A stretch of 64,000 nucleotides of DNA from Octopus vulgaris (Eukaryota): assembly GCA_951406725.2 (NCBI GenBank), contig OX597814.1, forward strand, positions 158,596,001 through 158,660,000. The letters are read 5' to 3'. The notes beneath the pieces are model-generated. The model searched no databases and had not been told where the DNA came from. It saw only the letters and a list, made by a program, of their open reading frames with translations. Of this stretch, positions 1,250-62,819 are shown piece after piece. Numbering within the stretch: position 1 is the stretch's first letter; the number at the start of each line of letters is the position of its first letter. The translations under genes were made by a program, and so were the position numbers.

Positions 1250-2123
1250 GTTATAATTTAACACACTCACTGGTAAAATTTCTGCTTATTTCTTTTTAAT
1301 TTTTCTAAAATAAAAAATAAATAAGTGTAAATTTATGCATGTGCGTGTATGTGTGTGTATGTGTGTGTATACCTCTGTTTCCTTGTGTGTGCACATCTGA
1401 GTGCATATCAGTGTGTGTGTGTGTGTTTGCAACTATGTACCGTGTTTCTATGTATGGATGTGCATCTCCATATGTGTGGACGTGTGTCTCCATATGTGTT
1501 CTTGGGTGAAGTAAAGTGTGTACTTATATATGGTCACGTGTTTCAGTCTTCATTTGTGTATGTATGCATGTGTGCTTGTCTATTCATATGACCTATGTAC
1601 CTATCCATCTGTATGTTGATCTGTTTACTTTCATATCCATATGCTTATATACATGTGCATATACATACACACACACACATATATATATACATACACACAC
1701 ACACACACACACACGCGCGCGTGCCTGCCCACAGACAAGTCTGGCAGACTGTCAATTGACAGCCTACAGAACTATGTCAAGACCATGAAACAACACATAA
1801 GTAGCATGAGAGAAGCTTCACCACAGGAACATGAAAGAGTGGAAAAACTCCTCAATGCACGCATAGGATTGTGGTGCAATATACCCCCATCCTACAAAAA
1901 GGACGGCACAACCTTTTCATAGGTTGGAGTATGTTGCACTACATTATCATGTGTGCATTGGGGAGTTTTTCCACTCTTTCATGTTCCTGTGGTGCAACTT
2001 CTCTCATGCTACTGATGTGTTGTTTCATGGTCTGGACATAGTTCTGTGGGCTGACAATTGACAGTCTGCCAGATTTGTCTGTAGGCAGACACGTGTGTGT
2101 GTGTGAGAGGGGGGTTATGTATG

Positions 2124-2981: not shown

Positions 2982-3188
2982 TTATATATATATATATATA
3001 TATACATAGGTACATTTACATGTATGATGCATATACGTATAATGCATTTACATATATGTGTATATATTGACAAGCATACATCCACTCGCATACTTTGGAT
3101 ATATGTCTGTATATATGTATATATGTATATATATGTATATATATATCTATATATCTATCTATCTATCTATATATATATATATATATAT

Positions 3189-4285
3189 ATAACATAAGGG
3201 ACTAAAGCCATCTGAATATGGCTAGGGACAGGGCAGGGTGGTGGGGGTGTTACTGTTGCATTTAGCCCCAGGCGAACATCGACGTCACCAGAAAGGCTCG
3301 ACACCGTCACGGTGTCCTTATCCTGCAAAGGGAGGTAATTCCCCGATGAAGCGGAAACCACACACGGACCATGGTTTCAAGGTGTATTGCCTATCGTCGG
3401 CGTGTTGTAGGCTTCCGCTTCCTCGACGAATTCTCACTCTGCAGGATATTCATATATAGATTTTCAAGCAAAATACATTTGCTGATTTCGAAAATCTGTT
3501 CGAAAGCAATAATAATTCTCTAAAAGAGATATAGACAGTAACTGCTCGATAACATAAGGGACTAAAGCCATCTGAATATGGCTAGGGACAGGGCAGGGTG
3601 GTGGGGGTGTTACTGTTGCATTTAGCCCCAGGCGAACATCGACGTCACCAGAAAGGCTCGACACCGTCACGGTGTCCTTATCCTGCAAAGGGAGGTAATT
3701 CCCCGATGAAGCGGAAACCACACACGGACCATGGTTTCAAGGTGTATTGCCTATCGTCGGCGTGTGGTAGGCTTCCGCTTCCTCGACGAATTCTCACTCT
3801 GCAGGATATTCATATATAGATTTTCAAGCAAAATACATTTGCTGATTTCGAAAATCTGTTCGAAAGTTAGTCCCTTATGTTATCGAGCAGTTACTGTCTA
3901 TATCTCTTTTAGAGAATTATTATTGCTTTCGAACAGATTTTCGAAATCAGCAAATGTATTTTGCTTGAAAATCTATATATGAATATCCTGCAGAGTGAGA
4001 ATTCGTCGAGGAAGCGGAAGCCTACCACACGCCGACGATAGGCAATACACCTTGAAACCATGGTCCGTGTGTGGTTTCCGCTTCATCGGGGAATTACCTC
4101 CCTTTGCAGGATAAGGACACCGTGACGGTGTCGAGCCTTTCTGGTGACGTCGATGTTCGCCTGGGGCTAAATGCAACAGTAACACCCCCACCACCCTGCC
4201 CTGTCCCTAGCCATATTCAGATGGCTTTAGTCCCTTATGTTATCGAGCAGTTACTGTCTATATCTCTTTTAGAGAATTATTATTG

Positions 4286-4287
<2 letters not shown>
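3189..4287. repeat. 360-bp unit array: 678 bp direct (1.9 units) plus 421 bp inverted, embedded in (TA)n
   Basis: Lines 3241 and 3601 are identical (period 360); one substitution seen (3406 T vs 3766 G); reverse complement runs 3867-4287. Confidence 0.97.
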
Positions 4288-4341
<54 letters not shown>

Positions 4342-5177
4342 TTTATTTAAAAGCAGCAGAAATTCAACAAAACCTGTTAGTTGGAGTTTCACGTTCCCGC
4401 TGAGTAAACTTTTATTTGTGTGTGTGTATATTATATGTATATGTGTGTTGTATGTGTGTGTGTGTGTGTGGTGTATGTGTGTGTGGTGTGTGTGTGTGTG
4501 ATGTGTGTGTGTGTGTGGTATGTATATGTATGATGTGTATATGTATATATATATATATGTAGTGTGTATGTATGGCCCGCACACACGCGTAGACACATTT
4601 ATGCATGTATATACACACACAAAGACGCGTGCACCCACACCGTGTGTACGCACACACACAAGCACATACTTAATACCAACACACGCAAAACGCGTATACA
4701 CGCATGCCACACGAATACACCCAACAGACATGGACACACATGCGAACAAACACATACACACTAACGCGCACGCAACACACTAATAAACATTAACCACACA
4801 CATACACACATACACACACAAACGGGCACACATATACACACACCATCCTACCCCAAAAAATTCTTTAAATAACACACATCTATTTACACCACCCTGGAAC
4901 CAATCAAAAACAGCCCCCCCACACACACACACAAACACATGTATACATATATATGCAGACACATAAGGAGACACACACACTCTCACCAATCTCACCTCCA
5001 TACAGACACACATATACACATGCAGCACCATGCCAAATGCCATTCACACACATACATACATACACACACACACACAACACCAAGACAACCACACACGCGG
5101 TTGACAAACGGACACACCATCCTACCAGATCTTACAGACACTCAGACACATCTATTCACACCACATATGTATGTATG

Positions 5178-7254: not shown

Positions 7255-7645
7255 GGCGCAGGAGTGGCTGTGTGGTAAGTAGTTTGCTTGCCAACCACAT
7301 GGTTCCGGGTTCAGTTCTACTGCGTAGCACCTTAGGCAAGTGTCTTCTACTATAGCCTCGGGCCGACTAAAGCCTTATGAGTGGATTTGGTAGACGGAAA
7401 CTGAAAGAAGCCCGTCGTATGTATGTGCGTGTATGTGTGTTTGTGTATCTGTGATTGTCCCCTCAACATCGCTTGACAACCGATGCAGGTATGTTTACGT
7501 CCTCGTCACTTAGCGGTTCGGCAAGAGACCGATAGAATAAGTACTAGGCTTACAAAGAATAAGTCCTGGGGTCGATTTGCTCGACTAAATGCGGTGCTCC
7601 AGCATGGCCGCAGTCAAATGACTGAAACAAATAAAAGAATAAAAG
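7255..7645 (+). mobile_element. tRNA-derived SINE family A, full length
   Basis: A-box-like TGGCTGTGTGG, B-box-like GGTTCAGTTC, internal (TG)n, tail ...gctccagcatggccgcagtcaaatgactgaaacaa; many copies in the window. Confidence 0.85.
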
Positions 7646-8025: not shown

Positions 8026-8552
8026 GATCTTCTCCAAAACTGAGAGACTATGGTCGGAAACTATGTGCTGAAGAATGGGCAAGGTTTACTGGCCGTTATG
8101 ACTGCGCTGAAGCTATAGCTAAATTTACAAAAGCTAAACGGTTTGTCCTGAGAACTCGATTTCAAAATTCTCGGAACAAAAGCTGTAGTGAACCCGACCT
8201 ATCTTGTCAAGCTACACCAGAAACCAATGATGGTCACAGTAAAAATGTAGACAGCAACTCCGAACACCGAACTAGACAAAGTTGGTTCCGCAAGAAGTTT
8301 AAGAAGCTATTACATATTCAGCATGATATGTTTTCTCGCCATATTGGTTCAGAAATGGAATTAGGTGGGAGTCCCTTTCAGATGATCGCCAGATGCGTGT
8401 CAACACCTCTAATTCCTGGTGCCATCTCGCCGTCCGACTCACCACCTTCTATGCGTAAAAATAATGGTTCCGAAGGCATCAAGATTCCTCGAGTGGAAGT
8501 AACAACTGCAGATACAAACGTTTCAAAACAGATAGCTGAAGATCCTTCCTAA
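8026..8552 (+). CDS. Terminal coding exon of an ankyrin-repeat protein, ANKRD33B-like
   Basis: Acceptor ttcatttcAG|GA at 8025/8026, open to TAA at 8550-8552. Peptide GSSPKLRDYGRKLCAEEWARFTGRYDCAEAI resembles the last ankyrin repeat of ANKRD33/33B (RD..R...A.EWA..TGR, from recall), followed by a low-complexity tail. Upstream exons not found in the window. Confidence 0.7.
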
Positions 8553-36349: not shown

Positions 36350-38066
36350 CTATTTCTTCTGGATAATATTCTCTGTTGTTGACATGGTCATTTCTTCTCC
36401 AGTGTAAGACTCTGCATTTGAAGATATTTTTACTTCTTGGTTGCTCATTCTTGACATAGTCTCCACTGTTTCACTTGCATTTGCCATTAGATGATGTTCA
36501 CTGCTATTTGAACTTGCTATGTTACTGTTCTGGAAAGAACTGGAAGAAGCTGTTTTTGTAATAGCTGACTGATCCGAAATTGAAGCTACATTTGAGTATT
36601 GTTTTTGCTCTTGTGATTGTGAGTTGTATTCTTTAGAAGCTGTGACTGTTTGAATTTCTTGTTTCATTGATTTGGTTTCTATTGCACCTGTCTGAAACTG
36701 CGCACCATGTGACATACTTGAATATGCTTGCCTTTCTTGCATCATTGATGAAGATTCCATAGTAGCTGTGTGAAATGGTTTTTCTCTATCAACTATGGGC
36801 TGAGCTTTTTCAGAAAACAAGCTACTTTCATTAGTAGCTGAATAAAGATTTTTTTCTTTCATCAATGACTTAGATTCCATTGTAGTGCTAAAAGATTCCT
36901 GCTTCTCTCTTGTTAATGTTCTCTCTTTCAAATCAAAGGAAGACTGCTTTCCTCTAATGGAAGAAAGTATATCTTTTGTTTCATCCACCTCAAAACTAGC
37001 TTCTCTTGATGCTGAAATCGAATTTGACATTTTTTTAGTAATAGATGCAGATAGGTCACTTGATGGTAGGGTCTCCTTGGTAACTGATTTGTAGGATTTA
37101 TTCAGCCCTTTCATTTCTGAAGTCATATAGTAGTCATCATCAATACTCAGTTCTCTCCTCATGTCAGTTTTAGAGGCAGTTGCTAATTTCCTACTGTCCT
37201 CTTTAATTCCTAACCCTTCATCAGATGATAAGCTAGAACTATATTTCATTCTTTCAGCTGTACCAGCCAGAGCAGATTTAGATGAAGCACCAATGTACTT
37301 TCGACTTTCTTGCACAGCAGCTCTACTCTCTTCTAATAGTGACTTATAGTCAGATGTTTGGGATTTTTGCATTGTAGAAGTATCTTTTGACATAGCCATA
37401 GCAGTTTTACTGCTTATCTGACTTCCAATAATATTTTCTCTTGGTTTAGCTGAATATGTTGGTAAGTCATCAGTGAAACTTTTATTTTGCCTTAAACTAT
37501 CAGTAGTTTTATTTTGCCTTAAACTGTCAGAAGTTTTGTTTTGTCTTAAACTATCAATAGTTCTTTGTTGCCTTGGCAAATCAATTTCCTTTTTATAGCT
37601 GAAATCTTCAGTACTTCTTTGTTTATAACTAGACATCTTTGTGTCTGAGTATGATTGATGCTGACTGTATTTAGATTTCCAATTCGAATTTAACTCCATA
37701 TCTGTTTCAGAAGTACTACTAAGAGAAGTCAAATTTCTAGAAAGAGATTTAGCATAATTTGCACTTGCATATTTATCATAAGTTCTCTCCTTTGGTTTTA
37801 CCTCATATGACTCACTAGTCCAGCCATATTTTTTATTTTCTTTAACCTCACTTTCTGTTGGTAGTTTGAATTTCCTCTCAGGTATATCATTCAAACCAGA
37901 GGCAATTGGACTCAGACGGGAAGAAGATCCCTTTTGCTCTTCATATTTTTTGGCATAGTCTCTTAATTTCAAACTCATAAATACATTTTCTTTTCGCATT
38001 TTTGTCATATCACTTGATAGTTGTAACCACTTGTGTTCTAAACAGTCATCAACTGTCATACGATTT
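36350..38066 (-). CDS. unc-89: Obscurin/UNC-89-like, terminal coding exon: kinase end plus long S/T/K/E-rich tail
   Basis: ttcAG acceptor, phase 2; NRMTVDDCLEHKWL closes the kinase (R.T...CL.H.W); uninterrupted 569-aa ORF to TAG. Confidence 0.88.
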
Positions 38067-39261
38067 CTGAAATTAAAAAAAAATGTAATTAATATAAAAT
38101 ATTTATTTTATATACATTTTCAATTTTCTGAAATATTTATCAATTATTCACAATTTAAACAGCTTTCTCCTTAAGAATAATAAATATATTTAATTAAATG
38201 CAGTCAGTCTCTGTTTAATGCATATTTCCGTCAATATCTAAATTAACCCTGATTAATTTAGTGGGTGGTATTAGATAATAATTTATTCCTAAATGACTTC
38301 AATTCTGTAGAGTCAAAAATACAAATGTGGAGTATTTGTCATTGTCCACAATATTCATGCATTTATCAATCCAAAATTGAAACAGTTCCTAAACTTGACA
38401 TTTTGTAAGCTTATCTCTACAGTGATTGCTATAAGATATTGAATAGACATTGCTTTCAGTAATACAGTAGTACTACTAATAATACTGCTAATGTGCTTGA
38501 TATACAACTGTATGGATATAGTCATTGCATCTTACATGACAACTAAGATTTTAGGGATAAGAAATAAAAAGTTAAAATATTTCTGATTTTCTTAAAGGTA
38601 TCAATAACTAAAACATTAGCTACATTTCTAATTAAGTATCAAAACCAATCAAAGGCTGATAAAAGTGATCTTCTTTTCTAGCCCAGCCAAAGAATAATGT
38701 TAGTTAACCTCTAATATTTTTGTTTATCACTACATCAATCCTACTGTGGTTATTTATGATGTTGGAAATATTGGAAATAAGCAAGCACACATTTTATGTT
38801 TTTATTACAGCCAGTAGAGTAGGTTTGTTGAGACATCACCTTCATTTTATAATGCTTGAAAATGTAAAAATACAAGAGAAAATAATGTGCCAATCAAGAA
38901 GAATGGATTGATAGAATTGCTAGAGCAAGGGATAGGATATCTTACAGTATCTGTTCTGGCTCTTTGCATTCTGAGCTCAAATACCACCTTGGTGCTAATG
39001 GCATGAGTTAATCACTCAACCATGAAAGCACCATGTCCAACCCAAAATTAGTGACTGTGGTCAGCTAAGTCTACAACCAACATGGAAAAACCAGCTGCAA
39101 ACACAGTGAATTGACAACAGCTGAATGGAATTAAAAAATATGGTAAAGCAAAGGCAATGCAGTCTTATAAAAGTAATTTTAAAAAACTCTAAAGAAGAAG
39201 GACACAACAATAAAACCTAAACATTTTTACATTTAACCAGTGATCTTATCTTCTCAGTCAT

Positions 39262-44571: not shown

Positions 44572-46127
44572 CTAAAATGATAGAATTTAAGCATATTTAC
44601 AAATAAGTCCAATAGTTATCTTTTTAACAAAATAGGTAAAGTGGTATCACTTAATTTGTTAGGAAGACATTTGACAATTCAGGTAGAATCTTTCTTTGAT
44701 TGCTGCTGTTTGCCTTAGATCAATTGTGATCAAGCAGTTTCATAATCAAAAAGCATTCCAGCTGTGACCATCCCATCCATTTTTTTAGACACGTTGGCGA
44801 TAAGACCACATTAATCAATGAATCCTATTTTCTAAGACAATATAATTTGAGGGACATTCAGTTACTATTTCTAGCTATCCATGTAACCTACCTTGATGGC
44901 CAGTCATAAATGGGATTTCATAAGGTGTTAGGTATAGCTTTATGTATTTTTTCTTAATGTGTTGCTGCGTTGTTGTTGTTGTATTGCTGATTAACCATCA
45001 AGTCAGCACAACCTGAGCACATCTAGGCTCAAATGCTTTCTGGCTATGATGATCCCATCTTATTTTCAGGAATAGTTTATCTAGGACCACATTATTCAAT
45101 GTGTCCTTTATAAAAAGAAAAGACCCATCAGGTGTAATTGCTACAGATTTAGTTACTATTTGTAGCAGGCTGAGCAGCTATATAGAAGCTCCCTTAATGG
45201 GGCAATTTCCTTTTGTAGAGGATTAGCAACAATTACAAAGGTTTGGTTTCAAATCTTGGCACAAGGCCAGCAATTTTGGTGGGGAGGGAGTAAGTCGATT
45301 ACATTGACTCCACTGTTCAACTGGTACTTATTTTAATATCCCAAAAAGGATGAAAGGCGAAGTCAAACCCTGTGGCATTTGAACACAGAATGTAAAGTTG
45401 GAAGAAATTCCATTAAGCATATTGTCCAGTGCATTAACAATTCTGCTAGCTCACTGCAGAATATTGACAAATAAATATATATAAAAACAATGTACTACTG
45501 TTGAAGAGTTTCAGTTCCTTAATCTGTTTTAGTTATTACAGTCAAGACCATGCTCATATACAGCTATGCATATTCTTTTGAGATGAAACATAGTAAGTGT
45601 TGATGCAGTAGAAGTAGAGAAGTAGTAAAATGAAGTGTGAAACGAAGTGACATTTACAGTCTCTGCTTTTAAGATGTCAGCTATTTCAGTCTTTATAAAA
45701 AATTACTTTAGCATGTCCAAGAGAGCTAAATCAAAGATTATTGCTTCCAAATAATGAATGTTGGAGATATGTCAGTATATATAACTTTCATCTAGTAATA
45801 ACTACATCCTGGATATTCTTCATCAGTTATGATACACCCTCTTCACAAAAATGCATTGGACATATATTGAAAGTAAATAAGACAGAGTTAACCAAGTCAT
45901 TATATTTTTAAATACTTATCTTGCAAAATATTTTGCATTGCTTGTGTAAGGATCAACAAAGTGACACATGACACAACAGTACTAGACAACTAGGGAGTTG
46001 ATATCATTGACTAAAATCATAAAGGTAATGCCCCAGCATGGCCACAGACTAAATACACTAAAAAAATACTCAACTGATCTCAATTAGAAAATTCAAAGAT
46101 TTTAATGTTTTAAATATGTTTACTTAC

Positions 46128-46588
46128 ACATAAATTCTGGTGATCCACACTGAGGGACATGTTTTCCAATTGGTGTTACAATCTTCTGAGCTAAGGTGAA
46201 ATCCTTAAGTTTCAATATAGGACACATTCTTCCCAACAAGATGTTTTCTGGTTGTATGTTCAAATGAATGATACACAAGAAATGCAAATATTGTAAAGCA
46301 TCTAGTAGCTGAGTGATAATTCTTGCCGCATCGTCCTCAGTGTAGCTACATCTAGATGACAAATGGTCAATGATATTCTCACTGTCAACATACTCAAAGA
46401 TTACTGTGTGAATGTTGTTGAATAAGAAAGCTCCAATCACAGTAATGACATTTACATGTTGGACTGTTACTAAAAGATTGAATTCGTTCATAATTTCATC
46501 TGTAGGTGTTTCATAAGGAGTTATTCTGGCATAGTACAGTTCTTCTGTTCTTTTGCTTCGACACAGCTTCCATTGACGAAATGCACCC
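46128..46588 (-). CDS. unc-89: Obscurin/UNC-89-like, (pseudo)kinase subdomains I-VIII
   Basis: ctcAG acceptor, GTAAGT donor; RGAFRQWKLC..LYYARI..EFNLL..QHVNVI..IFEY..YLH..IIHLNIQPENILL..LKLKDFTLAQ..CGSPEFM is a CAMK/MLCK-type fold. Confidence 0.92.
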
Positions 46589-46810
46589 CTGAGAAATAGT
46601 AATTCAGCAAAAAGGGGTCATAATAACAAGTAACTGAAACAAATGAATGCATATGCCTTCTCACACACACACGCACACACATTTTGAATATGCAAATAAA
46701 GGCTCTTATTCTATTATGCTGGCTACAGCCTAATGATACCAACTAGCAATACCAGCTTTTGGAGTCACACCAAGCTGTGCCAATATAATGTAGGATAAGT
46801 ATAGTAGTAA

Positions 46811-47017: not shown

Positions 47018-47021
47018 GGGC

Positions 47022-47412
47022 CTCTGTGCCGGTGGCACATAAAAAGCACTATCCGATCATGGCCATTGCCAGCCTCGCCTGGCCACCATGCTGGTGGCAC
47101 ATAAAAAGCACCATCCGATCGTGGTCATTGCCAGCCTCGCCTGGCCACCGTGCCGGTGGCACATAAAAAGCACCATCCGACCGTGGCCATTTGCCAGCCC
47201 TGTCTGGCACCTGTGTCGGTGGCACATAAAAAGCACCCACTACACTCACGGAGTGGTTGGTGTTAGGAAGGGCATCCAGCCGTAGAAACATTGCCAGATC
47301 AGACTGGGCCTGGTGCAGCCTTCTGGCTTCCCAGACCCCAGTTGAACCGTCCAACCCATGCTAGCATGGAAAGCAGACGCTAAATGATGATGATGATGAT
47401 GATGATGATGAT
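47022..47412 (+). mobile_element. SINE family C with internal tandem repeat of about 62 bp
   Basis: ggtggcacataaaaagcac recurs at about 47031, 47093, 47155 and 47218. Confidence 0.85.
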
Positions 47413-56522: not shown

Positions 56523-56564
56523 CTATATATATATATATATATATATAGAAAGAGAGAAAGAGAG

Positions 56565-57080
56565 AGGAATTCAAGATAGGTTGCCCCTGGGAGCTCCTCT
56601 ATGCTGATGACCTAGCCCTCTTTGCAGAATCACTACCGGAACTAGAAAAGAAATTTCGTGTGTGGAAGCTAGGTTTAGAATCAAAAGGCCTTAGAATCAT
56701 TGTAGCAAAGACCAAAGTTCTGGTAAGTAAGAAGGCAAACTCATCACACACCCCCTTAGGTAGGTGGCCCTACTCAATCTGTAGAAAAGGTGTAGGTAGA
56801 AACTCCATAAGATGTACCCAGTGTAAGCTATGGACACATAAGAGGTGCAGCAACATCAAAGGAAAATTAACTGAGAAGATAACTTTCGTGTGTGGCAGAT
56901 GCACAGGGGCAATAGACACCACAGATACTCAGAAAACAGATTCCTCACACTCCATGGGGAAAAACTAGAAGTAGTTGATAGTTTCTGCTACCTAGGTGAC
57001 CAAGTTAGTAGTTGGGGTGGATGCTCAGAGAGTGTTACCACTAGAATAAGAATAACCTGGGCAAAGTTTAGAAATCTTCT
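56565..57080 (+). pseudogene. RTE-clade LINE reverse transcriptase fragment with internal Cys/His finger
   Basis: GCPWELLYADDLAL...GL.I...KTKVL, then ICRKGVGRNSIRCTQCKLWTHKRC...CGRC, then (frameshift) LEVVDSFCYLGD. Confidence 0.85.
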
Positions 57081-57678: not shown

Positions 57679-60600
57679 CTGTAAATATAAGACATAAAAG
57701 TTAGAATTTAAAATAAAATTTGTTAATAACTAGAAATGGTAAGAAAACTATATGAGATGCTTTGAAATTAAATCCATTTACATCTTTGGCCACTATAAAG
57801 ATAACATAACTTTAAGAGACCAAGATGAATAAAGAGCTAATAAGAAGAGTCCTGCTGTTTTAACAGAAGAAAATTCTGATTGTCAAGGTATAAATAGTTT
57901 GTAACTAGTAAATCTTATAAAAACAATGCTACAGTCAAGTAGGTTTGCTTTAATGTTTTCTGAAATAACTATCTCACAGTCATTTTATATATATTTGTAT
58001 TGAGACATACATTGTAAATGAATTTCAGTATAAAAATTCCCATGATAATGACAAGCTAAATTAAATTTTGGTAACCAAGGAAATAATTGCTTTTAAAGAG
58101 TAGCTAATTAAGAAATTCATCAAGTAAAATGGGAATTCAGAATCCAATTATGAGTGATAATAATGTTTCATTACAATGAAATAGCATAAATATCTGCTTG
58201 AATTGTCTCACAAGATAAACCAAATTTAGAAGGGTATTCTTTATTTGTGAAGTCACTGGAGTTTTCTGTATTATAACATAACTGGCTTCCATTGATAAAT
58301 ACTTGAAAGAGAGCAATTTAGAAGAGGGTGTTCAATGATGATTTATATTTCATTTTTTTATAGGATGTTTACAAAAGAAAGGCAGTATCATAAAGAAACG
58401 CAGTGCAGGCCTTCCAAAATTAGTGACATAGATTTAGTTAATATTTGTCTTGAACATTTATAGCTCTTATGTCTGTAGAAAGTATGTTGCTGAGAATGCA
58501 GATAGTTGAAGTTCTGCAGTAAGGCTTTGAAGGTAGACATAGTGAGAACAATGAGATTTTAAGGGAGGCCTAAATATTTCAGAGGAACAGAAACCATTGT
58601 AGTAAACCTTGAAGAAACAGCATGTTTGCAACTTAGTGATAAAGATCAATTGGCAATTGAATTTCTAAACTCATAATGGATTTCTGGGGAACAAAGCATT
58701 GGACTCTCAATCATGAAGTAATGAGTTTGATTCCCAGACTGGGATATGTGTTGTGTTCTTGAGCAAAATACATTATTTCACATTGCTCCAGTTCACTCAG
58801 TTGTACAAATGAGTTGCAACGTCACTGGTGCCAAGCTGTATCAGTTTTTGTCTTTTCATTGGATGACATCAGTGGTGTGGAGAGGGGAGGCTGGTATGCA
58901 TAGGCAACTGCTGGTCTTCCATAAACAATCTTGCCTGGATTTGTACTTTGAATGGGAACTTTCTAGGTGCAATCTTATGGTCATCCATTACCTCAGTAAA
59001 TTTTTACACTTTTTTTGGCCTTCTATGGATGATGATTTGAATATGAGTATATGCAGTAGCAGTAAAAATGTCCCAAACAAGTAAGAAATACTTTAGTACG
59101 GAACTTAAATTAATTATCTAGAAAGAAAATTTATTATTATTCTGATTTTGTTTCGTTATTTTTTTTTTTTTGTTCTTGAGAGGGGTAACTACTTCAGTCA
59201 ATGTATATGGAGAAGCTGAATCTCTGTAGCTTTCAACTTTTTAGGTGTTTCTGGTTTAACAGTCACACAATAGGGGAGATAGTGACACAGGATTATGTGT
59301 CATATTATACTGGTAAGGACAAGACATGACAATGGTGGAAACAGTGATGAAAACAATCACAACATCGATGATGATGATGACGACTACTCCAGTTCCGAAT
59401 AGCCTTCCAACTTAAGATAATAACACCAATGAGGATTTTTCTTTAAGATATAGGATTTCATCCCTGGAGGAGTAAAAATAGTAGAGAACTACTATTAGAA
59501 ATACTACAGGTTTAATAGTTTTTCTATATATATAGTGAAAGAGAGAAAGAAAGAGAGAGCAAAGATTGAAGGAGAGATTTTCAACAACAAAACTTCATGT
59601 ATGTGTGTGGTGTCTATGTGTAAATATCAGCTCTTGTCAAGCATCCAACCCACGCCAGCATGGAAAACAGACATTATATGATGATTGTGGTGGTGGTGGC
59701 GGTCGTCGTCGTCGTCATCGTCACAATAATGGTGATGATGATGATGACGATGATGATATATCTTAGGATGGTTTCTCATCTGAAGTGCTTATAAACTAAG
59801 CAGGAATTGAACACAAATTTAAAAATATCAAATAATGAATTATCAAGAAGCCAAATAAGTTACAAAAGTAAGAAACCAGAACATAGAGAATTCAGGAGTG
59901 AAAACAAAATTAGGTGGCTTTACTTTGTCTAAGAAAATTGGGATTTGTAATGAAAATGTTCCAGCCTGAAAACAAATGAAGGAAAAGCATAATACTTTTG
60001 TAGCATTTTAGAAAATAAGAACTGGATGAACTAATCATATTTTATGAATGGCAAGGGTCTAGAAAAGTCACTCAGGTGTAAGAACAGGTAAAAGGTACTA
60101 TTTTATATATGAGGGATTAAAGATGTTTTCTTTTTTTATGTTAGCACTTCTGAAAATATTTTTTATTTGATGATATTACAATATCCTGAATATAGGTTTT
60201 CTTAAGGTTTTACAGAGGTCACTACCAGTTTACTTTTGTTGGGGAAGACCACCAAATAGTGAAAATATTTTTGAAAATTATTACATTCTTGTTGTTTAAG
60301 CCCCCACCAAATCAGCACCACACTTACAACAGATATTAAGGCATATCAGCTTTGATAATCATGTCTTTTCTTTCTTTCATTCTTTTCCCTAGGAATAGTA
60401 AACCCAGCACTTAGCTGTCCAACGTTTTTTCAAAATGTATTATGTGATTTGAGGGGGGGGGGGGGGGTATTTGGCTGCTATTTCTGGTACACCAAGTGAC
60501 TTTTTAAGGCTCCTTCACTATCTCACACCAATGTATATAGTAAATACTGATACATGATAATACTGACAAACCTTGCCAGTGATACAGAGAAGGCACTTGT

Positions 60601-60836
60601 GCCAGTGACACATAAAAGGCACTTGTGCCAGTGACACAAAAAAGGCACTTGTACCAGCGACACATAAAAGGCACCCACTACACTCTTGGAGTGGTTGGTG
60701 TTAGGAAGGGCATCCAACCATAGAAACCAAGCCAAACGAGACTGTCAAACCCATGCTAGCACAGAAAATAGATGCTAAGTGGTGATGATGATGATAATGA
60801 TGATGATGATGATGATGATGATGATAAAATTGTTAC

Positions 60837-61335
60837 CTTCTTTTGGCATGCCTACACTTGGTTTCCTTTCCATCACATAAACTTGGCCTTCTTTTTCACG
60901 AGCAATTTGACGTTCATTTCGTATTTCTGAACTAGCAGATACCCATTCCACTTCTTTTTCCATTTGAACTATTTTGTCATGTTCAATATCGAGTTCAGAA
61001 AGACGCCTCTTAGTTCTTGCTTTTATTCTGATTTCTTCATCTTCCTCTGCTCCTATTTCATTTTCATTTTCTCCATTTTCACCTTGGGATTTTAGTTCAG
61101 TATACATCCTGGTACGCAAAGAATATTCAGATTCACTTCTTGGTTCAAATCGTTTATTCCAGTCAAAGCGTGTTTCTGAGTCTAAGAATTCACCATATTC
61201 TCTTGAATCAGGGTAAATTATTTTATTAGTTTCTGGATCAATTTCTGGTTTGAGAGAAGGAGCTGATGGTATAACAACTTCCATTTTTGTCAAACTTTCC
61301 AATCGAGCAGTTTTTACAGTGGCACTAGATTTTCT
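60837..61335 (-). CDS. unc-89: Obscurin/UNC-89-like, charged linker exon (first exon in window)
   Basis: ttcAG acceptor, phase 0, RKSSATVKTARLESLTK...KPSVGMPKE, G|GTAAC donor in phase 1, which matches the next exon. Confidence 0.75.
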
Positions 61336-62819
61336 CTGAAGAAAGCAAAAAATAAAAACATCAAGTATTTAAAGTTTTTCCATTTGAGAACTTATATTTT
61401 ATAGATTACATATGTAAATATAAAAAAAATTGTTTGAAATAAATGCATGTTTTTCTGCTTTTAGAGGAATTGAAAGGAAATCTAGATTGTAGGTTTTTTT
61501 GTTTTTTGTCTTTTTTAGATTTAAGACCTTATTTTTTTCACCAACACAAATACTTCAGTAAAGCAAACAATAAAAAAATTATTTTGTAATACATATAAAT
61601 TGATTCTTTTTTTTTTTTTATTAATTCAATAATAATAAGATTCCATCTTCAAATATCTATAAATATATGATATACTTATTTTCTAAGTATAAGAAAAATT
61701 GTTATGTGTTTTGTTTTTGAACCTCATAATCATTTCAGTAAGAAACAAAAGTGAATTTCTTAAGTGGTTTCTGTATTTCATTATTTCAGCATAATAATAG
61801 AACATTTTAAAAGCAATTCAAGAATAACAAGAATTCAATTACATTAAAAATAAAACCTCAGTCGGAAATAGTATATCTTGAAATAGCAAATGAAAACTAG
61901 AATCAGAAGAAATAAGTAGTGGCCTGTCAGCAAAAATCAGTTCCTAAATTTCACAAGTTTGAATAAGTTCATAAGCTGTGGAAAGATATTAATTCTATTG
62001 TATTTGCTCAAGACTTTTTTAGAGAAATTCTTTTTCTCTGTAGAACTTAGAATTCATGTCTCCTTTGCCATACAAGCATATTTAAATATATAAAAAAATT
62101 TTAACAATTACAAGAGAAAACTAACAAGAATAATATTATGTTCTTTGTATTATAAATCATTTGTTCAAAAATATGAGTAAAGATATGATGTAATGTTAGG
62201 GCTCAATTTCTAAAGGATTCACAGGAGTGCCAGTGTAACATACAGCATATCTGGGTATTTTATAATTAATAGAACCCTCTCCTGATCTAACATAACTATT
62301 TTTGATTCGAGAAAAAGATAGAAAGTGAGAAAGAGAGAAATAAGAACATCCCTCCTTCCCCTGTACTGTATTGGTACTTTACTAACTGACTGTAGAATAA
62401 GGATGAAAGGTAACATTGGTTTTTGCAGAATTTGAATCCAGAGTGCAGAGTGCTGAAACAAGTACCACAATGTAATTCATCTGACACACTAATAATTCTG
62501 TTAACTCACTGCCAACACATCATTGCACAGGATTGTAATAATTACAAGCATAAAAACCTAAAACCAAGTGGTTAGTTGTGCACTGAAAGAGGAATGACAT
62601 CATATGATATGGCAGGAATTCCAAAACTTTCAGTCATCTGCACAGTTGATGGTTGAAATCTTTGGAATTCAAGCAATATCATGTCATTATACAATGCATG
62701 GTTGAAAAACAAAATACAGGCAATTCTAAGGAATATATCCAAGTTATGAAAAGATAATGCTTTTTTATCATAGCTCTTGATTAATGCTAATAATTGATAT
62801 TTTGGGGGATTAAATGCTT

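What the first reader, a model, noticed from the sequence alone, without database searches (positions are those of the whole stretch)
3191..3562. The 360-nt unit folds extensively but lacks a canonical ribozyme core: possible divergent self-cleaving RNA
Seen on +: AGCCAT/ATGGCT; GACACCG/CGGTGTC; a long nested arm TATCCTGCA..AATTC..GAAGCGGAA / TTCCGCTTC..GAATT..TGCAGGATA enclosing GCCTATC/(G)GTAGGC, with an alternative GAAACCA/TGGTTTC; AGATTTTC/GAAAATCT enclosing AGCAAA/TTTGCT. I found no intact CUGANGA...GAAA on either strand. The only hammerhead-like trace is degenerate (TTCT-CTAAAAGA-GA...TC-GATA-AC-ATA-AGGG, 3516-3560), and it overlaps the 17-mer where the concatemer starts and ends. A partial HDV-like look (TTCCCCG, GG, hairpin, AGGTAAT/ATTGCCT) exists near 3333-3392 but lacks P1. 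Inference: if monomers are released by self-cleavage, the motif is divergent or new.
Basis: partly seen in the sequence, partly recalled or inferred. Interest (0 to 1): 0.7.

Follow-up and report, generated by a model that had tools for sequence, protein, structure and literature searches.

The report
Octopus retrozyme with variant hammerhead core

Summary
The stems are real and the unit folds better than shuffles (z -4.1 plus, -6.5 minus). The claim that there is no ribozyme core is essentially wrong. The minus strand carries a complete type I hammerhead layout: stem I CACACG/CGUGUG, core CCGACGA (U4 changed to C), U·U plus a 3-bp stem II, GAA, palindromic stem III ACCAUGGU, and a predicted GUC cut between 3367 and 3366. 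It occurs three times in the insertion and nowhere else in the 64 kb; 0 of 5000 shuffles match as well. The 1,099-bp insertion (3189-4287) is 1.9 tandem units plus an inverted 1.2 units, with a 44-nt tail at one end, between (TA)n tracts: the footprint of Penelope-like elements. It lies in an intron of an Octopus sinensis-type gene. Public runs hold many young variants; the core varies only at free position 7. Verdict: non-LTR retrozyme with a rare U4C core. Cleavage and circular RNA are untested, and the active fold is predicted about 9 kcal/mol above the best fold.

The parts
3189..4287 (.). Whole insertion, 1,099 bp, between (TA)n tracts: partial tandem plus inverted truncated copy
   Evidence: one substitution (3406) among all copies
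3189..3866 (-). Left arm, 678 nt = 1.88 units; in the hammerhead sense it runs outward from the junction (body 316 + tail 44 + body)
3867..4287 (+). Right arm, inverted, 421 nt = 17 nt + tail + body + tail; blunt junction at 3866/3867 without microhomology
4244..4287 (+). 44-nt tail present only at the right end (same sequence as 3505-3548 on the minus strand)
   Evidence: (inverted arms I1, I2); one older contig in run X1 also stops matching at 3503
3361..3406 (-). Type I hammerhead layout, copy A: core CCGACGA 3400-3394, stem II 3392-3380, GAA 3378-3376, palindrome 3375-3368, C17 at 3367; predicted cut 3367/3366; stem I 5 bp here because of T at 3406
3721..3766 (-). Type I hammerhead layout, copy B; stem I 6 bp; predicted cut 3727/3726
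4026..4071 (+). Type I hammerhead layout, copy C, in the sense of the host pre-mRNA; predicted cut 4065/4066
3319..3448 (-). Long arm = extended stem I (6 bp, UAC/U internal loop, 12 bp, further helices)
   Evidence: constrained fold
3343..3360 (+). Second pair of hammerhead boxes on the opposite strand (CCGAUGA-AGCG-GAAACCA), without stem II or stem I; equals exact antisense of both boxes in the 3' arm
   Evidence: 12 of 50000 shuffles place both in order within 40 nt; test designed after seeing it
3569..3658 (.). About 90-nt module shared with other, otherwise unlike repeat families
   Evidence: run X1 records 3 and 4 and their loose ends
4287..4340 (.). (TA)27 right flank; the left flank is an AT-repeat array ending at 3191
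8027..8552 (+). Last exon of the host gene (ankyrin-repeat protein LOC115217241); upstream exons are not in the window, so the insertion is inferred to be intronic

Best explanation
The 360-nt unit has the layout of a non-LTR retrozyme, with a type I hammerhead motif (U4C core variant) on the minus strand of every unit, and it was likely copied into a TA microsatellite by the enzymes of a Penelope-like retrotransposon. Shown: tandem unit, no real ORF, three hammerhead layouts, inverted truncated arm, one-sided 44-nt tail, (TA)n flanks, many young variants in public runs. Inferred: tandem transcripts would be cut slowly at GUC (3367/3366 and 3727/3726) into 360-nt monomers that a host ligase could close into circles; a Penelope-type endonuclease/RT (Hydra clade is the best candidate) would nick (TA)n and prime cDNA from both target strands at two template sites 44 nt apart, each running more than once round the unit, which gives the two arms pointing away from the central junction. 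Slow cutting from U4C, weak stems II and III and a competing fold would keep circles or multimers intact as templates.
For: Hammerhead: 3 hits, all in the insertion, in 64 kb of both strands; 6 of 5000 shuffles give any hit and 0 of 5000 one as good. 0 of 33 matches to the same box pattern in metagenome and viral contigs form stems I and II. Same layout (core-U, stem II, U-GAA, palindromic stem III) as Hydra-clade PLE hammerheads, and Hydra-1_oBim of Octopus bimaculoides has stem III ACCA-a-TGGT and targets (TA)n (PMC8557442 File S1/S2). Among 11 listed variant sites none hits an invariant core position; 3396 G>A is free position N7 (75,888 of 129,774 depth in X5), 3406 T>G restores stem I pair 6 in all 4 runs, 3413 and 3432 turn A-U into G·U in the minus sense (read by hand). 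Size, 46% GC and tandem form fit metazoan retrozymes (150-450 bp; mussel 350-390 bp; PMC7229834). Partial tandem + inverted truncated copy + one-sided tail + (TA)n is the PLE footprint (PMC8557442). 1,565 contigs laid in run X5, 659 at 99% or more; three other runs each give one closed contig that goes back 360. A natural U4C viroid hammerhead is slow in vitro but sufficient in vivo (as cited in PMC3088659).
Against: U4 is a conserved core position and U4C considerably lowers activity. The active fold lies 9.6-9.8 kcal/mol above the free ensemble in the monomer; the double-hammerhead fold is only 1.3 kcal/mol better than two single ones (+16.6 against +17.9), so dimer rescue is not clearly favoured. 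Rfam lists no ribozyme family at E up to 10. The descriptor was relaxed after I had seen the motif (one search missed it). No two-sided compensatory change was seen; 3 of the 11 variants weaken predicted pairs in the minus sense (3439, 3448, 3527). Element ends lie 178 and 222 nt downstream of the cut, so they do not mark cleavage. The tail (44 nt) is slightly longer than the 30-40 bp described. No autonomous partner sharing sequence was found. Run X5 may be the source sample of the window.
Confidence: 0.62

Rival explanations
1. Same PLE-mobilised repeat, but the hammerhead is dead: U4C and the competing fold silence it, and the family spreads from uncut multimeric transcripts, like non-autonomous Chlamys/MRC1-type or ribozyme-less Naiad elements.
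For: U4C, U·U at stem II and a 2-bp stem III together; active fold +9.6 kcal/mol; both arms carry the cut site intact; Naiads spread without hammerheads (PMC8557442). The family is young, so lack of core variants is weak evidence of selection.
Against: All other core positions and all three stems are intact; core variation is confined to N7; each single deviation has a cleaving natural precedent.
Confidence: 0.22
2. A satellite or stranded pLTR remnant spread at DNA level (unequal crossover, fold-back repair), with a fossil hammerhead.
For: Very high summed depth and closed 360-nt contigs are also what tandem DNA gives; no expression data.
Against: Short 1.9 + 1.2 unit insertion in a TA tract with a one-sided tail and both 3' ends outward matches the PLE footprint; copies differ at one base.
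Confidence: 0.08
3. A viroid-like ambisense unit: both strands cut, and the RNA is or was copied RNA-to-RNA by a symmetric rolling circle.
For: The plus strand has both catalytic boxes with the same U4C change, overlapping the minus-strand hammerhead in one rod (12 of 50000 shuffles).
Against: The plus-strand boxes have only 4 nt for stem II and no stem I next to the cut; pairing boxes with anti-boxes costs 9-28 kcal/mol; an inverted duplication during PLE copying explains it more simply.
Confidence: 0.05
4. The inverted arm is an assembly artefact and only the tandem unit is real.
For: Near-perfect 377-bp inverted repeat; the junction was not part of the stretch laid.
Against: The flanks on the two sides differ, the arms end at different unit positions, and the form is a known PLE product.
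Confidence: 0.03

Closest known systems
Metazoan non-LTR retrozymes (Cervera and de la Pena 2020, PMC7229834; parts 2-4 of 6 read). Mussel 350-390 bp and axolotl HHR_Amex2 353 bp are the nearest types
   Same: Non-coding tandem unit of 150-450 bp, GC below 50%, one type I hammerhead layout per unit, 2-bp stem III with palindromic loop, U·U at the base of stem II (as Amex2), strongly self-paired; predicted fold blocks the ribozyme as in some mussel retrozymes
   Different: Core is CCGANGA, not CUGANGA; host is an octopus (no octopus or cephalopod mention in the main text; supplement not readable); cleavage and circles not shown
Hydra-clade Penelope-like elements, e.g. Hydra-1_Obim (Craig et al. 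2021, PMC8557442; passages and supplement part 2 read)
   Same: (TA)n target; hammerhead layout core-U/stem II/U-GAA/palindromic stem III; stem III ACCA..TGGT as in Hydra-1_oBim; partial tandem, inverted truncated copy and tail as described for PLEs
   Different: No RT or GIY-YIG ORF; no other sequence match seen by eye or by four short words searched in the supplement (one chance hit); core U4C
Natural U4C hammerhead of a viroid (Ambros and Flores 1998; not held; known here only through Perreault et al. 2011, PMC3088659, passages)
   Same: Same core change
   Different: There a variant of a plant pathogen RNA; here apparently fixed across a multi-copy genomic animal repeat, in type I form
Retrozymes as non-autonomous PLE derivatives (Li, Clavereau and Pollet 2026 preprint, 10.64898/2026.07.22.740005; part 1 of 5 and passages read)
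   Same: Proposes the PLE partnership that this insertion's geometry shows
   Different: Sampled 31 vertebrates and 4 invertebrates with canonical and minimal descriptors; reports exclusion from introns in Xenopus, whereas this copy is inferred to be intronic

Membership tests
Type I hammerhead ribozyme | Three stems around the core in type I order, NUH cut site | tested here: met
   stem I 5-6 bp, stem II 3 bp after U·U, stem III 2 bp + palindromic loop, GUC
Type I hammerhead ribozyme | Canonical core CUGANGA...GAAA | tested here: not met
   position 4 is C in all 3 copies; all other core positions match. Filed as a core variant, not as canonical
Type I hammerhead ribozyme | Rfam hammerhead model match | tested here: not met
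   no ribozyme family among 27 and 4 rows at E up to 10; no positive control was run
Type I hammerhead ribozyme | Core conserved and stems covarying across copies | tested here: inconclusive
   1 of 11 listed variants in the core, at free N7; 3 keep or restore stem I pairs, 3 weaken pairs; no two-sided change; young family
Type I hammerhead ribozyme | Loop 1 / loop 2 tertiary contact | not tested
   An internal loop 6 bp from the core and a 7-nt loop 2 exist; contacts not modelled
Type I hammerhead ribozyme | Self-cleavage | not testable with these tools
   needs in vitro transcription
Non-LTR retrozyme | Tandem non-coding unit of 150-450 bp, GC below 50% | tested here: met
   (360 nt, 46.4% GC, only short stop-to-stop frames)
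Non-LTR retrozyme | Type I hammerhead in consecutive units | tested here: inconclusive
   layout present in both tandem units, but with the U4C variant core
Non-LTR retrozyme | Multi-copy family | tested here: met
   1,565 contigs laid in X5 across four identity bands; not a copy number
Non-LTR retrozyme | Expressed as linear and circular monomers | not testable with these tools
   only contigs were available; a closed 390-nt contig cannot tell RNA circle from tandem DNA
Penelope-like element (autonomous) | RT plus GIY-YIG ORF | tested here: not met
   no such frame in the insertion
Penelope-like element insertion footprint | Partial tandem, inverted truncated copy, one-sided tail, microsatellite target | tested here: met
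   against PMC8557442; tail 44 nt against 30-40 described
HDV-like ribozyme | P1-P2-P3-L3-P1.1-J4/2 nested pseudoknot | tested here: not met
   0 hits on each strand with my own relaxed descriptor; no Rfam hit
Twister, pistol, hairpin ribozymes | Family core words | tested here: not met
   (short recalled consensus words, a crude test)
Ambisense viroid-like RNA | Complete ribozyme on both strands | tested here: not met
   plus strand has boxes but no stems I and II

The most novel reading that the evidence does not exclude
A young, high-copy octopus retrozyme family that has fixed a slow U4C hammerhead and still carries the two catalytic boxes of a second, opposite-strand hammerhead in the same rod, as viroids do: a genomic element descended from, or still able to act as, a both-strand self-cutting circular RNA.
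Probability: 0.07. Interest if true: 0.8.

Novelty: new variant of a known kind. Interest (0 to 1): 0.35.

Why it matters
It shows that standard hammerhead searches (CUGANGA descriptors, Rfam here) can miss a whole retrozyme family, so animal retrozymes may be under-counted. If a family with a fixed U4C core is active, it is a natural test of how much cleavage a retrozyme needs, which bears on the open question of whether hammerheads help Penelope-type mobility or ride along. The insertion also shows, in one locus, a retrozyme with the full Penelope footprint, a link so far argued from co-occurrence and phylogeny. The general kind is known.

Tried and rejected
My first hammerhead descriptor gave 0 hits because it required a pair right after A9; the core words did show in its listing. 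Rfam at E up to 10 gave only fold-back miRNA-type and other unrelated matches. A plus-strand trace at about 3482-3548 (CUGAUUUC...GAAA...CUC) was considered and dropped: two or more core changes and no stem I; not hit. HDV-like, twister, pistol and hairpin readings gave nothing. No tRNA in 3000-4500. Relatives: a 20-mer found 0 metagenome stretches; an 18-mer found 2 viral and 7 prokaryote stretches, none matching over more than 24 nt; the box pattern found 31 + 2 stretches, 0 of 33 with stems. No RNA holder listed on record (several runs are only guessed to be RNA), so nothing is concluded on expression. One search listed no place where many molecules begin or end (contigs only). The octopus Naiad and Hydra consensus starts seen show no likeness by eye; their 3' ends were not read in full. 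The anti-box switch idea was tested and is energetically poor. A two-molecule cofold crashed and was replaced by folding the natural tandem. Literature searches found no report of an octopus retrozyme or of a CCGANGA animal hammerhead; most subscription papers, Repbase and Dfam are not covered, and the supplements of PMC7229834, file 1 of PMC4209133 and the preprint could not be seen and may list such elements. Earlier scan notes: nothing by sequence or place.

Full report
Setting. The window is AT-rich animal DNA full of microsatellites. The exon at 8027-8552 translates to a protein 100% identical over 174 aa to LOC115217241 of Octopus sinensis, an ankyrin-repeat protein; the Argonauta relative is 83%. 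Residues 1-157 are not encoded in the window and the exon has an AG acceptor, so the stretch before it is inferred to be the last intron of a plus-strand gene. No whole genome is held.

Anatomy. The flagged unit is part of a 1,099-bp insertion, 3189-4287, between an AT-repeat array and (TA)27. The left arm (3189-3866) is 1.88 head-to-tail units of 360 nt; the right arm (3867-4287) is an inverted 421 nt of the same unit. All copies are identical but for one base (3406). Read outward from the blunt junction, the left arm ends at unit position 3549 and the right arm 44 nt further, at 3505. Partial tandem, an inverted truncated copy, a 30-40-bp tail at one end and (TA)n targets are the described footprint of Penelope-like elements (PMC8557442, passages). 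The insertion holds only short frames.

The observation. The unit folds better than shuffles on both strands, better on minus: z -4.09 and -6.50 linear, 0 of 100 each; -4.49 and -7.45 circular, 0 of 150 each. There is no CUGANGA on either strand, and Rfam gives no ribozyme at E up to 10.

The missed hammerhead. My first descriptor also failed. The table of Hydra-clade Penelope hammerheads (PMC8557442 File S2) shows a layout with an extra U after the core and before GAA and a palindromic stem III. The minus strand of the unit has exactly this: CACACG, CCGACGA, U, AGG-CAAUACA-CCU, U, GAA, ACCAUGGU, C, CGUGUG. The only core change is U4 to C. A descriptor allowing one core mismatch and an open 10.1/11.1 pair finds three hits in both strands of the 64 kb, all in the insertion; 6 of 5000 shuffled units give any hit and 0 of 5000 one as good. 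This test was set up after the motif was seen. As an outside control, 0 of 33 matches to the same box pattern in metagenome and viral contigs form stems I and II. The trace at 3516-3560 and the HDV look are not supported.

Other copies. 20 of 24 listed runs, from 11 studies, hold at least 60% of the words. Four were laid on 3295-3690. X5 (probably DNA, possibly the source sample) gave 1,565 contigs (659 at 99% or more, 554 at 95-99, 288 at 90-95, 64 below), a young multi-copy family; depth is not a copy number. X1, X14 and X20 each gave one contig that goes back 360, which fits tandem DNA or a circle alike. Of 11 variant sites listed at 4% or more, read by hand against the fold: 3396 is free position N7; 3406 restores pair 6 of stem I in all four runs; 3413 and 3432 turn A-U into G·U in the minus sense; 3439, 3448 and 3527 weaken pairs; 3452, 3599, 3600 and 3616 lie outside the hammerhead arm. 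No row touches position 4, so C4 appears to be family-wide. No two-sided change was seen. One older X1 contig stops matching at 3503, near the tail end, and two share only the 3569-3658 module.

Can it cut? U4C considerably lowers activity in vitro yet sufficed for a viroid in vivo, and U10.1·U11.1 and weak palindromic stems III occur in natural hammerheads (PMC3088659, passages). An axolotl retrozyme with a U·U stem II base and a 2-bp stem III cuts slowly alone and better as a dimer (PMC7229834). Against: the active fold is 9.6-9.8 kcal/mol above the free ensemble, and the double-hammerhead fold of the natural tandem gains only 1.3 kcal/mol over two single ones. These energies ignore tertiary contacts. 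I put real but slow cleavage at roughly 70% given a retrozyme origin.

Mechanism (inferred). Tandem minus-sense transcripts would be cut into monomers and closed by a host ligase, as shown for coral, mussel and axolotl retrozymes. Element ends lie 178 and 222 nt past the cut and both arms are longer than one unit, so the template was likely a circle or an uncut multimer. Priming from both strands of a nicked (TA)n at two template sites 44 nt apart would give the two arms and the one-sided tail. Hydra-clade elements, which target (TA)n, carry this hammerhead type and exist in Octopus bimaculoides, are the best candidate partner; octopus Naiads are described as remnants. No partner was identified. 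The host pre-mRNA would carry copy C in sense, but inside a 377-bp fold-back that is predicted to mask it.

An oddity. The 3' arm of stem I holds exact antisense to both catalytic boxes, so the plus strand reads CCGAUGA-AGCG-GAAACCA with the same U4C change; 12 of 50000 shuffles place both words in order within 40 nt (post hoc). It lacks stems I and II, and pairing boxes to anti-boxes costs 9-28 kcal/mol. An old inverted duplication of the hammerhead is the simplest account; a relic of a viroid-like opposite-strand hammerhead is not excluded.

Comparison and novelty. It works like a metazoan non-LTR retrozyme and meets the structural criteria, except that the core is non-canonical and activity is untested; it is not an autonomous PLE. 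Nine literature searches showed no octopus retrozyme and no animal CCGANGA hammerhead; subscription papers, repeat databases and three supplements were not seen. Two earlier scan notes from other genomes describe similar kinds of element; they are unchecked and not used as support. Verdict: new variant of a known kind, interest 0.35.

Noticed in passing
window 3866 and 4287: The inner end of the left arm (unit position 3506) falls within 2 nt of the outer end of the right arm (unit position 3505), as if one cDNA stopped where the other was primed on the same template.
   Followed up: no
window 3569-3658: A 90-nt module is shared with unlike contigs in run X1, one of them also 360 nt long: probably sibling repeat families.
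   Followed up: partly
window 3224-3247 (+): G-rich run with four or more G tracts, a possible G-quadruplex on the plus strand.
   Followed up: no
window 3533-3540 with 3609-3616, and 3558-3566 with 3621-3629: Two long-range helices across the tail that could form a pseudoknot; seen by eye, and each appears singly in folds.
   Followed up: no
window 3189-4243 (+): Read-through gives a 377-bp near-perfect double-stranded RNA in an inferred intron, a likely ADAR or siRNA substrate.
   Followed up: partly
window 1449-1760 and 2059-2420; 2760-2830 and 1200-1270: Older diverged inverted repeats of microsatellite-rich sequence just left of the insertion (seen by eye).
   Followed up: no
window about 7255-7640: SINE-like repeat resembling common octopus SINEs (recalled resemblance, no call).
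   Followed up: no
window 56549-56965 (+): Reverse-transcriptase-like fragment with a YADD motif, likely a LINE remnant (family not tested).
   Followed up: no
window 36353-38107, 46123-46617, 60778-61368 (-): Open frames that look like exons of a large kinase-type gene; Pfam gave no family for the 569-aa frame; the kinase reading is recalled.
   Followed up: partly
window 47019-47237 and 60574-60674: Minisatellites of 62 and 26 nt sharing a TGCC..TG.CACATAAAA word.
   Followed up: no
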